Source: Stegostoma tigrinum
Lineage: Eukaryota
Assembly: GCF_030684315.1 (NCBI RefSeq)
Contig: NC_081369.1
Coordinates: 9,772,035-9,836,034, forward strand
DNA: 64,000 nucleotides
Reading direction: 5' to 3'
The stretch's first letter is position 1; each line of letters opens with the position of its first letter. The translations under genes were made by a program, and so were the position numbers. The notes beneath the pieces are model-generated. The model was not told where the DNA came from and did no database searches. It was given only the letters and a program-made list of their open reading frames with translations. This document shows positions 27,665-63,250 of this stretch, in pieces.

Positions 27665-27826
27665 TCATTCATAATACACAAATGAAAAGTCCCAGAATCC
27701 CTTTGTCTCATGTGACATTTTACACTGACTGATGCTTCACTGGTTAATGTATTTCACAAACTTGAGTGTTTCTTTATCTCGGTAGATCAAGGCCAACGAG
27801 TTGTCTTCTTGGCAAAGGGTAAGTAA
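27665..27826 (-). pseudogene. OGFOD1: OGFOD1 pseudo-exon 13 (last coding exon)
   Basis: LLTLCQEDNSLALIYRDKETLKFVKYINQ*SISQCKMSHETKGFWDFSFVYYE*; premature TGA at 27739-27737 at an Arg position (consistent with CGA>TGA); natural stop at 27667-27665. Confidence 0.93.
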
Positions 27827-28128
27827 CTGAAATGCAATAGAGACCGTTAATACGATTTTTATTGAGTTACCTCTCAATTTCTTCTTTTCCTTTTCTCTAC
27901 AACTCCCTTCTTATACTTTATCTCTGGTCAACATGCAAGGCATGTGACAACTTCCAGCATTTTACATTTTGCCCAGAGTTAGTACCTTGCTGGTATGGGC
28001 GCTGAGACTGTCCTGGGCATTTCACATTTTGCAGCTTCACCTGACTGGAGTATTAATCCTTCACTTTCTATCTCCATCGGTGGCATGGGTCTATTCTCAG
28101 CCATTTAACTAAAACCAGCAATCCAATG

Positions 28129-28350
28129 AAAACTGAAAGAACTGCCAATGCCGTAAATCAGGAACAAAAACAAAATTTGCTGGAAAAGCTCATCAGGTCT
28201 GGCAGCATCTGTGAAGAAAAAAAAATCAGAGTTAACATTTCGGGTCCAGCGACCCTTCATCAGTCACCACACCCGAAACGTTAACTCTGACTTTTTCTTC
28301 ATAGATGCTGCCAGACCTGCTGAGCTCTTCCAGCAATTTCTATTTTTGTT
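28129..28350. mobile_element. palindromic mini-PLE (family B)
   Basis: Inverted arms; flanked by AATCCAATG on both sides. Confidence 0.8.
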
Positions 28351-28399
28351 ATAGAAATCCAATGTACTGATGATGACATTTAGACCCTTGCAACTTACA

Positions 28400-28730
28400 G
28401 GGGTGGCATACTGGCTCAGTGGTTAGCACTGCAGCCTCACAGCACCAGGGACCCAGGTTCAATTCCAGCCTCGGGTAACTGTCTCTGTGGAGTTTGCACA
28501 TTCTCTCCACGTCTGTGTGAGTTTCCTCCGGGTGCTCCGGTTTCCTCCCAAAGTCCAAAGATGTGCAGGCTAGATGGATCGGCCATGCTAAATTGCCCGT
28601 AGTGTTCAGGGGTGTGTGGGTTATAGGTGTTTGAGCCTGGGTGGAATGCTCCAAGGGGCTGTGTGGGCGTGTTCGGCCGAAGGGCCTGTCCCCACACTGT
28701 AGGGAATCTAAACTAATCTAATCTAATCTA
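28400..28730 (+). mobile_element. HE1-type tRNA-derived V-SINE, full length
   Basis: A box TGGCTCAGTGG, B box GGTTCAATTCC, V-domain ggtttcctccgggtgctccggtttcctccc-like core, (AATCT)n tail. Confidence 0.88.
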
Positions 28731-59193: not shown

Positions 59194-61111
59194 TTCCACT
59201 AAATACCTTGGCAAGGAGCAGTTTTGTTAACAAACTATAACAGAAATGTAATATTTTATTAACATTAAGCACTTGTAAAAGTAAAACATAAATTAATCGA
59301 TTAGCCCCTTAAAGGCTACGAAGAAGAAATATCTATACACTATTTCAATGGTATTCTCTCATTTATGACCTGGTTTGACTGGAATTTTCTAGGTTAGATA
59401 TGATGAGCTTTCTTTCTAGCCATTAGCGTTGGAATGCACAAATTGGGGCAGTCAGTTCATTTACACTTTCCTTTAAATCAAAACATACTCAAATTTAAAA
59501 TATGTTCAAAAAGCATAATAGGCTTCTTGTGCATTTTATGGCATAGGTTCGGCACAGGAGTTGCACCCAACTGTTTAACCCAACCCTGCTGAGGCTGCGA
59601 CCTCTGGAAAACTTCACACCACTTCTCTCCAAAGGCAATCATGCACCTGATGCCAGATCCACACTGCAATCTTAGTGACAATAGCATATCTGAGCTTGCT
59701 TCTCAGTGTTTCTACATTTAATACAGAAATCCATCATACATGTATATAAAACCAACCCTAGACTTGATGCCTTAAACTTTGTTTCCAGCCCTTAAGGTGT
59801 GACGACGCCACTGGCCTGCCAGAAACATCCATTTTCTCTAACTTCTGGCATCTTGTCTACCCGCTGACCTTTTTGTCCATGTTGCTAGATTTTGAGGCTC
59901 CATTACATTTCCTCATTAAATACTTGATGTGTTCTGGCAAGCCATTTCGTAAGACAACATATCATTTGTCTCTTGAAAAATCCAGAAACAGATCTTAACA
60001 CATTCCTTTCTCCATCCAGCTATCTCTGCCAACCTAAATCCCATGAAGTTTGCAAAACATGACATTCATTTAACAAATTCAAGCTGATTGCCCTTGATTA
60101 GCCCACACATTTCTGAATGTTCACCAGTTACATCTTGAATTGTCATCTATCCAATTAGATAGACACAGATAACGTTTCCCACACAAGCTCTCAAACAAAC
60201 TTCAGGCATAAATGACCAGTTCATTTATTTTTAGTGGAGTGATTAAGGGATAAATGTTGCTTGGGACAGTAGTCGAACTCCATGCTCCATCACAACTGAT
60301 GCAGTCAGCTTTAAACTTCACCGAACACAAGCTGTGGATTTCATTGCTATCAGTGAAGCAACAGCACTCACTACTGACCTCATAGGAAGCTGCATACAAT
60401 TATAAACTAATTTATTAGGTATGGCTTTCCACTTTCTCAACATTAATCTGAATCTGGTGCCAAATCCAAAATCTAGCAGTGATATTGTTGAGAATGGTAA
60501 CCAGACTGTAATATTCTCAACCACAGGAAATTAGCAAGAAAAATGCAGTCAAATTTTTACCCTTGATCAAAACTTTGCTGAAAGCAAAATAAATTATTGG
60601 AAAATATACATGAGATGTAACTGTAAACTGCAAAGATAACTTGCTTTAAACATAAAACGTTTTAAAAGTTAATAAATTTAGCAATCCACAAATATAAAAA
60701 ATTAGTTTTCCACTGACACTGAAGCTATTCAGTAATTTGAGAGTGGGAGATCAGATCTTAGTCAGCAAAGTGTAACCTTGTCAACAGTTTTTACAGCGAT
60801 ATTAAGTACAAATTTGTCAGTTCAGAAGCTCATTGATTGCCGATCAGGGAACTTCAACAGCGTACCCTGTAGGGAAATGAAATCACGAACAGCAACTTGA
60901 GCACTTCATCATGTTACTGCGCACATGCAAAATTCAGATATTCCTATTAATATCCAAAACTCAAAAGATGCCTAACGTTGTTAGCTCAGTTGCAAATACG
61001 GTCACAAAAAAATACGGCTAACGTGTCATCTCAAACCAGCACGTCACCAATAAACCACTATCAATACTGTATTAAGTACTTTAAACATTAAAACAAAGTC
61101 ACTTGACCCCT

Positions 61112-62642
61112 GATAATAAAATGTGAGGCTGGATGAACACAGCAGGCCAAGCAGCATCTCAGGAGCACAAAAGCTGACGTTTCGGGCCTAGACCCTTCAT
61201 CAGAGAGGGGGATGGGGAGAGGGAACTGGAATAAATAGGGAGAGAGCGGGGAGGTGGACCAAAGATGGAGAGTAAAGAAGATAGGTGGAGAGGTAGGGAG
61301 GGGATAGGTCAGTCCAGGGAAGACGGACAGGTCAAGGAGGTGGGATGAGGTTAGTAGGTAGATGGGGGTGCGGCTTGGGGTGGGAGGAAGGGATGGGTGA
61401 GAGGAAGAACCGGTTAGGGAGGCAGAGACAGGTTGGACTGGTTTTGGGATGCGGGGGGGCGGGGGGAAGAGCTGGGCTGGTTGTGTGGTGCACTGGGGAC
61501 AGGGGACGAACTGGGCTGGTTTAGGGATGCAGTAGGGGAAGGGGAGATTTTGAAACTGGTGAAGTCCACATTGATACCATTAGGCTGCAGGGTTCCCAGG
61601 CAGAATATGAGTTGCTGTTCCTGCAACCTTCGGGTGGCATCATTGTGGCACTGCAGGAGGCCCATGACGGGCATGTCATCTAGAGAACGGGAGGGGGAGT
61701 GGAAATGGTTTGCGACTGGGAGGTGCAGTTGTTTGTTGCGAACTGAGCGGAGGTGTTCTGCAAAGCGGTCTCCAAGCCTCCGCTTGGTTTCCCCAATGTA
61801 GAGGAAGCCACACCGGGTACAGTGGATGCAGTATACCACCTTGGCAGATGTGCAGGTGAACCTCTGCTTAATGTGGAATGTCATCTTGGGGCATGGGATA
61901 GGGGTGAGGAGGTGTGGGGGTAAGTGTAGCATTTCCTGCGGTTGCAGGGGAAGGTGCCGGGTGTGGTGGGGTTGGAGGGCAGCGTGGAGCGAACAAGGGA
62001 GTCACGGAGAGAGTGGTCTCTCCGGAAAGCAGACAGGGGTGGGGATGGAAAAATGTCTTGGGTGGTGGGGTCGGATTGTAAATGGCGGAAGTGTCGGAGG
62101 ATGATGCGTTGTATCCGGAGGTTGGTAGGGTGGTGTGTGAGAACGAGGGGGATCCTCTTTGGGCGGTTGTGGCGGGGGCGGGGTGTGAGGGATGTGTTGC
62201 GGGAAATGCGGGAGACGCGGTCAAGGGTGTTCTCGATGACTGTGGGGGGAAAGTTGCGGTCCTTGAAGAACTTGGACATCTGGGATGTGCAGGAGTGGAA
62301 TGTCGTATCGTGGGAGCAGATGCGGCGGAGGCGGAGGAATTGGGAATAGGGGATGGAATTTTTGCAGGAGGGTGGGTGGGAGGAGGTGTATTCTAGGTAG
62401 CTGTGGGAGTCGGTGGGCTTGAAATGGACATCAGTTACAAGCTGGTTGGAGACTGAGAGGTCCAGGAAGGTGAGGGATGTGCTGGAGATGGCCCAGGTGA
62501 ACTGAAGGTTGGGGAAGGTGTTGAAGTGGATGAACTGTTCGAGCTCCTCTGGGAAGCAAGAGGCGGCGCCGATACAGTCATCAATGTACCAGAGGAAGAG
62601 GTGGGGTTTGGGGCCTGTGTAGGTGCGGAAGAGGGACTGTTC
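61112..62642 (-). mobile_element. Penelope-like element (family A), 5'-truncated, RT C-terminus + GIY-YIG endonuclease + pLTR
   Basis: YIDDCIG RT motif; VVYCIHCTRCGFLYIGETKRRLGDRFAEH GIY-YIG/CCHH region; one frameshift near 61905; 12 bp TSD CACTTGACCCCT (61100-61111, 62643-62654). Confidence 0.92.
61173..61206 (-). ncRNA. minimal hammerhead ribozyme motif in PLE pLTR
   Basis: Same intact CTGATGAAGGGTCTAGGCCCGAAACGTC on the coding strand of the element. Confidence 0.6.
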
Positions 62643-62789
62643 CACTTGACCCCTACTGTTAATTCTGCTTTCTCTCCAAAGATGCTGCCAGGCCTGCTGA
62701 GTTTTTTTCCAGCAATATCTGTGTTTGTTTCTGCATTGTACTTCATCTTCTGGCCAACACAGGAGAACATCCACTGAACTAACACAGCA

Positions 62790-63250
62790 TTTGCATTGTT
62801 TCGCGGGCTCGGTTACTCTGAGCTCCCCTTTTTTCCAGCCTACTACCCTCCCTTGGCTGTTATGCAAACCGTCGCTTCCTCTCACCATGTGAGTACTCGA
62901 GTCCCCGGCTCCAGGCCTCGCTCACTCGCTCCTTCGTTTTCAACAGTAATGAGTTCAGCTCCGCAAGCTCCCTCTCCTTTAGCTGTCTCTTCCCTCCGAC
63001 CCACTTCGCACCCTCTTGGAGCTCATTCCCAGCCCGTAACAGATGTTCTAAACTCAGAGAATCACCTGCGGTCGCTGTCTCGCCTCGGACTACATTTCCC
63101 GGCAACTCGCGGTTCGCCAATTGAAACTGTTCTTTCCTGCAACAGCGCCACCTGCAGACTGCAGCGGTGTTGAATTCTCCAGAGAGCGGCAGACAGTGGA
63201 GTGGTGAGATAGTGCATTCCTGTGGCAGCAGGCGGGACTGCAGCCACTCT
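62790..63250 (-). promoter_or_regulatory. CpG-island promoter of the OGFOD1 copy with ZNF143/THAP11-type and CTCF-type motifs
   Basis: CpG-dense around exon 1; GGACTACATTTCCCGGCAAC at 63087-63106 resembles the ACTACAnTTCCCAG motif; CAGCGCCACCTGCAGA at 63143-63158 resembles the CTCF core. Confidence 0.6.
62886..63026 (-). pseudogene. OGFOD1: OGFOD1 pseudo-exon 1
   Basis: ATG at 63026 gives MSSKRVRSGS then an early TAA; a shifted frame gives KERELAELNSLLLKTKERVSEAWSRGLEYSH (cf. KKEVMAEFS...QVAEAWSRRTPFSH); donor G|GTGAG. Confidence 0.8.

What the first reader, a model, noticed from the sequence alone, without database searches (positions are those of the whole stretch)
27665..63026. Full-length decayed OGFOD1 next to an immune receptor: duplicate passenger or true gene loss?
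Seen: 11 colinear exons with introns; about 10 frameshifts, TAG in exon 10, TGA in exon 13, donors mutated after exons 5 (CT) and 7 (GG), and LLCHDD changed to LLHLDD. Established: OGFOD1/Tpa1/Sudestada1 is conserved from yeast to humans, hydroxylates RPS23 (uS12) and uses an HxD...H iron triad. Inference: most likely carried along in a segmental duplication with the receptor gene, marking the duplication unit of an expanding immune family. If no intact copy exists, it is a notable vertebrate loss of a ribosomal oxygenase.
Basis: partly seen in the sequence, partly recalled or inferred. Interest (0 to 1): 0.7.

Follow-up and report, generated by a model that had tools for sequence, protein, structure and literature searches.

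The report
Dead OGFOD1 duplicate beside intact gene
This is a broken second copy of the ribosome-modifying gene OGFOD1 in a shark; an intact copy lies about 260 kb away on the same chromosome, so the gene was not lost, and the dead copy likely rode along as a passenger when part of an immune-receptor gene cluster was duplicated, which makes it an ordinary pseudogene.

Summary
Window 63026-27665 (minus strand) is an intron-containing OGFOD1 pseudogene: 11 of 13 exons, 10 internal frameshifts, TAG and TGA stops, two dead splice donors, and two of three iron ligands lost. Gene loss is refuted: an intact 13-exon OGFOD1 lies about 260 kb away on the same contig and strand, near NUDT21, AMFR and BBS2, and only two copies were found in the genome. 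Both lie in one old direct duplication of at least 90 kb, about 74% identical. The block carries an upstream V-C1 receptor that is kept in both copies. The in-window receptor is kept only on the pseudogene side. OGFOD1 does not mark the family's expanding unit: it has 2 copies against 23 V exons in 1.06 Mb, and the recent 78-kb array lacks it. A protein tree puts the duplication near the base of the sampled carpet sharks, and a related species holds a frameshifted orthologue. The scan noted the receptor family before on other DNA, but not this pseudogene. Ordinary passenger pseudogene.

The parts
62886..63026 (-). OGFOD1 pseudogene exon 1: ATG at 63026, 13-nt frameshifting deletion at codon 9, 94% identical to the intact exon
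62648..63287 (.). Retained CpG-island-like promoter/exon 1 region (CpG observed/expected 0.64, GC 52%); 9.9% divergence from the intact copy against about 20% background
59048..59183 (-). Pseudogene exon 2: acceptor and first 13 coding nt lost in a 24-nt deletion
58067..58113 (-). Pseudogene exon 3 (AG/GT kept)
57402..57491 (.). Interval holding the junction of the ~1.9-kb deletion that removed exon 4
   Evidence: flanks match window-relative 316516 and 318407; intact exon 4 lies at 318159-318059
54778..54896 (-). Pseudogene exon 5 (54896-54780): LLCHDD to LLHLDD (iron ligand H156 lost); donor reads CT
52733..52822 (-). Pseudogene exon 6: +1 frameshift, 3-nt deletion, distal iron ligand H219Y
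47589..47721 (-). Pseudogene exon 7 (47721-47591): two +1 frameshifts; donor reads GG
45459..45562 (-). Pseudogene exon 8: two +1 frameshifts and a 12-nt deletion
43889..43897 (-). 9-nt remnant of exon 9; the rest and its donor lost in a ~155-bp deletion
42280..42587 (-). Pseudogene exon 10: -1, -1, +2 frameshifts; TAG at 42345-42343
40997..41126 (-). Pseudogene exon 11: +1 frameshift
31957..32015 (-). Pseudogene exon 12 (frame and splice sites kept)
27665..27826 (-). Pseudogene exon 13: premature TGA at 27739-27737 (from CGA, codon 523)
15638..64000 (+). In-window part of the direct segmental duplication; it continues to about 106.8 kb and its partner lies at window-relative about 268/274-351 kb
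   Evidence: 53 collinear matches, 54.5 kb aligned, 74.3% identity; the first match at 9353 is likely a low-copy repeat
19211..21986 (.). 2.8-kb stretch holding the receptor's leader and V exon; cleanly deleted in the partner block beside the intact OGFOD1
   Evidence: flanks abut at 278480/278482; junction sequence
20784..20838 (-). Neighbouring intact receptor P0128, exon 1 (leader)
20203..20505 (-). Receptor P0128 V exon, ending in a J-like GNGTG motif in the same exon
   Evidence: V-set E 2.5e-10
10725..11021 (-). Receptor P0128 C1-set exon
   Evidence: C1-set E 2.9e-11
7318..7431 (-). Receptor P0128 predicted transmembrane exon; the last exon lies 2.6-2.8 kb before the window start

Best explanation
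This is a dead, intron-containing duplicate of OGFOD1, and it was likely carried as a passenger in one old direct segmental duplication of at least 90 kb inside a cluster of V-C1 immunoglobulin-type receptor genes. Shown: two copies in the genome, same strand, about 260 kb apart, with collinear introns and flanks; one copy intact and one broken at more than 15 places. Inferred mechanism: unequal crossing-over between related receptor genes or repeats duplicated the block, with its left edge inside intron 2 of the in-window receptor. Afterwards the left copy kept that receptor and let OGFOD1 decay; the right copy kept OGFOD1 and lost the receptor's leader and V exon; the upstream receptor was kept on both sides. 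The spare OGFOD1 was likely freed from selection early, near the base of the sampled carpet-shark lineages, and it can make no active enzyme.
For: The intact 13-exon copy translates exactly to P0001. All 23 of 23 genome-wide tblastn matches fall in these two loci, and a DNA search finds only the window and the partner at full length. The collinear block is 54.5 kb aligned at 74.3%; non-coding K2P is 0.249 over 45,847 sites, close to dS 0.26. Pairwise dN/dS is 0.51 (95% bootstrap 0.37-0.70), which overlaps the 0.55-0.65 expected if one copy was neutral from the start. 64 of 337 sites conserved in the other sharks are changed. The pseudogene shares 19 of 23 carpet-shark-derived residues but only 1 of 6 Stegostoma+Rhincodon-derived and 1 of 11 Stegostoma-only residues. 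Organism B (two studies) holds a second copy about 93% like the pseudogene, with a net +1 frameshift in exon 10. The upstream receptor's V exon is conserved between the two blocks (8-10.5% divergence against a median of 20.5%). NUDT21, AMFR and BBS2 lie 0.18-0.31 Mb from the intact copy.
Against: Unequal crossing-over is not shown: later duplications and an inversion blur the breakpoints, and a second chain pairs 66-94 kb with 351-378 kb. The V-exon tree does not resolve which distal receptor is the partner (support 30-69). Several lesions are absent from organism B's copy (exon 5 CT donor, C155H, the -1 at 42533), so they post-date the species split, and the time of death is not fixed; dN/dS of 0.51 allows a period of function after the duplication. 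The tree places the pseudogene with Hemiscylliidae at only 81% support on a long branch. The exon 1/intron 1 region is more conserved than simple neutral decay predicts (5% in the best 200-nt windows).
Confidence: 0.93

Rival explanations
1. True loss of OGFOD1 in this shark.
For: Only the broken state of the window copy. The title of PMC11156292 (search listing) implies that mice live without OGFOD1, so a loss would be tolerable in principle.
Against: An intact 13-exon gene with HxD...H kept lies at G000:C19:10094521-10062422; the same-species runs X1 and X2 also hold a second, paralogue-like contig; full-length OGFOD1 proteins are listed for the other sharks.
Confidence: 0.005
2. The coding part is dead, but its CpG-island promoter and first exon were kept as a working regulatory element (promoter of a non-coding transcript, or an enhancer for the neighbouring receptor genes).
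For: 62648-63287 diverges 9.9% (63 of 639) against about 19-20% background (P 1.6e-10); the lowest windows of the whole block lie here (5%, 839 windows); CpG observed/expected is 0.636 against 0.638 in the intact copy and 0.15-0.18 in introns.
Against: Constraint on the intact copy alone would halve the divergence to about 0.10, which is the value seen over the whole island. From general knowledge (recalled), CpG islands stay unmethylated by their own sequence and mutate more slowly. Gene conversion from the intact copy would give the same picture. Exon 1 itself carries a 13-nt deletion.
Confidence: 0.1
3. Assembly artefact or falsely duplicated haplotype.
For: The region is repeat-rich, and a 99%-identical 78-kb array lies nearby.
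Against: The copies differ by 21% in non-coding DNA; contigs from two samples match the window with 0-2 differences; organism B holds both copies.
Confidence: 0.01
4. OGFOD1 plus the in-window receptor is the repeating unit of the immune family's expansion.
For: The block does reach into intron 2 of the in-window receptor and holds one upstream receptor.
Against: 2 OGFOD1 copies against 23 V-exon loci in 1.06 Mb; the youngest array (78-kb unit) has no OGFOD1; the in-window receptor has no V, C1 or transmembrane exon beside the intact OGFOD1.
Confidence: 0.03

Closest known systems
Unprocessed (duplicated) pseudogene, a housekeeping passenger in an immune gene cluster under birth-and-death evolution (general knowledge, recalled)
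   Same: Introns kept, collinear flanks, intact parent nearby, accumulated frameshifts, stops and splice lesions, raised dN/dS.
   Different: Nothing in kind. It is old (about 0.21-0.25 substitutions per non-coding site) yet still shows 11 of 13 exons and its CpG island.
OGFOD1 / Tpa1 / Ofd1 ribosomal prolyl hydroxylases (PDB 4NHX, 4NHK; Pfam PF13661, PF10637)
   Same: The parent P0001 aligns to 4NHX at E 4e-215 and carries both Pfam domains; the pseudogene is 75% identical to it over 465 codons.
   Different: The window copy has no open frame past codon 9, lacks exons 4 and 9, and has lost H156 and H219.
Unitary pseudogene (gene loss without an intact copy)
   Same: Full-length, intron-containing decayed gene near its ancestral neighbours.
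   Different: An intact paralogue exists 260 kb away, so it is not unitary.
Non-rearranging VJ-type Ig genes (NKp30/NCR3, UrIg, UrIg2) and the V-C1 proteins SIRP and B7-H6, for the neighbouring receptor only
   Same: P0128 has V-set, C1-set and a predicted transmembrane stretch, with a J-like motif inside the V exon; its PDB matches include UrIg2, SIRP-alpha, B7-H6 and light chains, at E 6e-19 to 1e-12.
   Different: No family stands out among those matches, and sources name its orthologues inconsistently. Membership was not tested here.

Membership tests
Unprocessed duplicated pseudogene | Introns and exon order of the parent retained | tested here: met
   11 of 13 exons collinear, with alignable introns
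Unprocessed duplicated pseudogene | Disabling lesions | tested here: met
   10 internal frameshifts, 2 stops, 2 mutated donors, 1 acceptor deleted, 2 exons deleted
Unprocessed duplicated pseudogene | Intact parent in the same genome | tested here: met
   G000:C19:10094521-10062422 gives P0001 exactly
Unprocessed duplicated pseudogene | Relaxed selection on coding sites | tested here: met
   Pairwise dN/dS 0.51 (0.37-0.70); pseudogene branch 0.26 against 0.085 on the intact lineage in the protein tree
Unprocessed duplicated pseudogene | No protein product and no functional transcript | not testable with these tools
   No expression data were examined
Unitary pseudogene (gene loss) | No intact copy in the genome | tested here: not met
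Processed pseudogene | Intronless, made from mRNA | tested here: not met
   Spans 35 kb with parent-like introns
Active OGFOD1 oxygenase | HxD...H iron triad (motif given in the finding and recalled; positions mapped on 4NHX) | tested here: not met
   Window copy H156L and H219Y, D158 kept; intact copy keeps all three
Active OGFOD1 oxygenase | Synteny with NUDT21, AMFR and BBS2 (human neighbours as named in the finding) | tested here: met
   Family hits on the same contig at 10.27, 10.35 and 10.40 Mb; NUDT21 is on the same strand as OGFOD1 and 177 kb from the intact start
NKp30/NCR3, SIRP or B7-H6 family (neighbouring receptor) | Orthology by tree and synteny | not tested
   Only Pfam and PDB sequence matches were run, and they do not separate these families

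The most novel reading that the evidence does not exclude
The dead OGFOD1 copy's CpG-island promoter and first exon have been co-opted, since the early carpet-shark radiation, as a regulatory element or non-coding-RNA promoter inside the V-C1 receptor cluster: a housekeeping promoter donated to an immune gene family by duplication.
Probability: 0.08. Interest if true: 0.45.

Novelty: new member of a known kind. Interest (0 to 1): 0.12.

Why it matters
As it stands it matters little: OGFOD1 is intact in this shark. The pseudogene is useful as a neutral clock and a landmark. It dates one duplication in a little-described cluster of non-rearranging V-C1 receptors, to near the base of the sampled carpet sharks and about 3 to 3.7 times the divergence between this species and organism B. 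It also shows complementary loss: one block kept the receptor, the other kept OGFOD1. It would matter more only if its conserved CpG island proved to drive or regulate neighbouring immune genes.

Tried and rejected
Gene loss: rejected. Repeated OGFOD1+receptor units: none. Processed origin and assembly artefact: rejected. Expression: no RNA holder listed, which is no evidence either way. The exon 4 deletion junction was not bridged by a single contig in X1 or X2. The first lay call was crowded by repeats, so most difference rows were cut (697 not shown). Gene conversion at exon 1 could not be tested, because the protein alignment has no informative sites there; in exon 13 the pseudogene keeps the ancestral residue at position 520 and a third state at 531, which argues against recent conversion there. 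Literature: searches showed no paper on a shark OGFOD1 pseudogene; the 10 papers holding 'OGFOD1' and 'pseudogene' are unrelated by title and abstract start. Four papers on shark VJ genes (PMC6761025, PMC3709836, PMC4594805, PMC10530332) are not held, so whether they describe this receptor cluster is open. The one held supplement of PMC3964593 had no occurrence of NKp30, NCR3, B7H6, SIRP or OGFOD1; other supplements could not be seen. The scan's place look-up near the window returned nothing.
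Full report
Observation. The window is G000:C19:9772035-9836034. A Pfam search of the genome found OGFOD1 domains 240-250 kb beyond the window. An exon from there matched human OGFOD1, PDB 4NHX, and retrieved P0001, a 546-aa protein that its source names Stegostoma tigrinum OGFOD1, on a contig of the same length as C19. Spliced mapping gave 13 exons at C19:10094521-10062422, minus strand, GT-AG at all 12 introns, translating exactly to P0001. New here: exon 4 is deleted (about 1.9 kb), exon 9 is cut to 9 nt, the exon 2 acceptor is deleted, and the distal iron histidine is changed (H219Y; position mapped on 4NHX; the triad itself is from the finding and recalled).

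No loss. Genome-wide tblastn with P0001 gave 23 matches from 23 candidates, all in these two loci. A DNA search with 1.8 kb of the pseudogene gave the window (100%), the intact locus (77%, full length) and two short repeat-sized hits. NUDT21, AMFR and BBS2 family hits lie at 10.27, 10.35 and 10.40 Mb on the same contig. The human neighbourhood is therefore kept, with receptor genes lying between OGFOD1 and NUDT21.

The duplication. Self-comparison of 664 kb shows one direct collinear chain from window-relative about 15.6 kb to 106.8 kb against about 268/274 to 351 kb: 53 matches, 54.5 kb aligned, 74.3% identity (matches under 150 nt or in high-copy repeats were dropped). Non-coding divergence is p 0.21, K2P 0.249 over 45,847 sites. 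The block holds OGFOD1 and an upstream plus-strand V-C1 receptor (93.4/96.9 kb and 339.9/342.9 kb), with open V and C1 exons on both sides and a V exon more conserved than background. A second chain pairs 66-94 kb with 351-378 kb, and the V-exon tree does not resolve the partner. The block's left end lies in intron 2 of the in-window receptor P0128 (five exons). Beside the intact OGFOD1 only non-coding remnants of that receptor remain: a clean 2.8-kb deletion removes its leader and V exon, and no C1 or transmembrane exon is found. So one block kept the receptor and lost OGFOD1, and the other kept OGFOD1. That unequal crossing-over made the block is inference.

Not the family's unit. In 1.06 Mb there are 23 V-exon loci, intact and broken. 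The family runs at least from 9.18 to 10.26 Mb, with a second cluster at 2.1-3.0 Mb of the same contig (124 of 259 candidates scored). The youngest expansion, a 78-kb unit at about 99% identity, has no OGFOD1. Orthologues of P0128 and OGFOD1 lie on contigs of equal length in Chiloscyllium plagiosum, Hemiscyllium and Carcharodon, which suggests that the linkage is old.

Age and decay. In a tree of 17 chondrichthyan OGFOD1 proteins plus the pseudogene (465 codons; all 17 chosen proteins used, one per species, other listed hits left out), the pseudogene falls inside the carpet-shark clade (support 100) on a long branch. It shares 19 of 23 carpet-shark-derived residues, 1 of 6 Stegostoma+Rhincodon-derived, 1 of 11 Stegostoma-only and 2 of 13 Hemiscylliidae-derived residues. 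The duplication thus lies near the base of the sampled carpet sharks; the 81% grouping with Hemiscylliidae is not trusted. Pairwise dN is 0.134, dS 0.261, ratio 0.51 (bootstrap 0.37-0.70), compatible with early release from selection (expected 0.55-0.65) and also with a limited functional period.

Read evidence. Of 17 runs listed, 4 of organism A hold the stretch and 7 of organism B hold a small share; four were laid. X1 and X2 (two samples, one study, possibly the assembly's source) match exons 3, 5, 6 and 10 with 0-2 differences and no gaps. X5 and X8 (organism B, two studies) hold two copies, one about 93% like the pseudogene (302 differences in 4,744 nt over 9 X5 pieces). In exon 10 this copy has one base fewer than the window at 42341 and one more at 42532; a loose end suggests it also keeps the base near 42514. 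That gives a net +1 against the intact frame, so it is frameshifted too (the pieces are assigned to the copy by identity and intron flanks). Against a simple story: the CT donor and C155H are absent from both of organism B's copies, so many lesions are lineage-specific.

One oddity. The promoter/exon 1 region (62648-63287) keeps CpG observed/expected 0.64 and diverges 9.9%, about half of background, with the lowest windows of the block (5%). Constraint on the intact copy alone predicts about half, and a low mutation rate in an unmethylated island or gene conversion could explain the rest. Co-option is not excluded (about 8-10%).

Literature. PMC12227049 and PMC10751288 were read as passages only; they discuss non-rearranging VJ genes (UrIg, UrIg2, NKp30), and OGFOD1 occurs 0 times in either main text. 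PMC3964593: search listing and a search of one supplement with no hits. PMC11156292: search listing only. Searches showed nothing on a shark OGFOD1 pseudogene. Two unreviewed scan notes describe the receptor family as a paired, SIRP-like family of cartilaginous fish; I confirmed only the cluster and the V-C1-transmembrane layout.

Verdict. An ordinary unprocessed passenger pseudogene with an intact parent nearby. Interest 0.12; new member of a known kind.

Noticed in passing
window 20838-7318 (-), last exon 2.6-2.8 kb before the window; P0128: Intact leader-V-C1-transmembrane receptor with a J-like GNGTG motif inside the V exon. Its tail has a Cys-rich juxtamembrane stretch and a CxxC motif (CVRC) conserved from Callorhinchus to carpet sharks; this could be a metal- or kinase-binding motif (guess). 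V-domain orthologues are 56-80% identical across chondrichthyans.
   Followed up: partly
G000:C19 about 9.37-9.61 Mb (L084-L103, L044-L047); further copies to at least 9.18 Mb: Tandem array of a ~78-kb unit at about 99% identity, each unit with one V-C1 gene and one broken P0128-like V exon; a very recent expansion or a partly uncollapsed assembly.
   Followed up: partly
G000:C19 2.1-3.0 Mb and 13.68 Mb: A second large cluster and an isolated member of the same V-C1 family on the same contig.
   Followed up: no
window 62648-63287: The pseudogene's CpG island has kept CpG observed/expected 0.64 and is the most conserved part of the duplicated block.
   Followed up: partly
window 54891-54877 (-): C155H plus H156L recreates an HxD pattern (H-L-D) shifted by one residue; likely chance, since the frame is broken upstream and C155H is absent in organism B.
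   Followed up: yes
G000:C19:10271012-10277283: NUDT21 lies on the same strand as OGFOD1 and 177 kb away, with receptor genes between, rather than head-to-head as recalled for human; this implies a local inversion.
   Followed up: no
window 17402-17653: A 250-nt stretch in intron 2 of the receptor is conserved between the two blocks (about 10% divergence against 20%); possible regulatory element or RNA gene, not examined.
   Followed up: no
window-relative -164 to -104 kb versus 241-268 kb: Inverted old duplication (about 70% identity) of receptor genes that abuts the left end of the block holding the intact OGFOD1.
   Followed up: no
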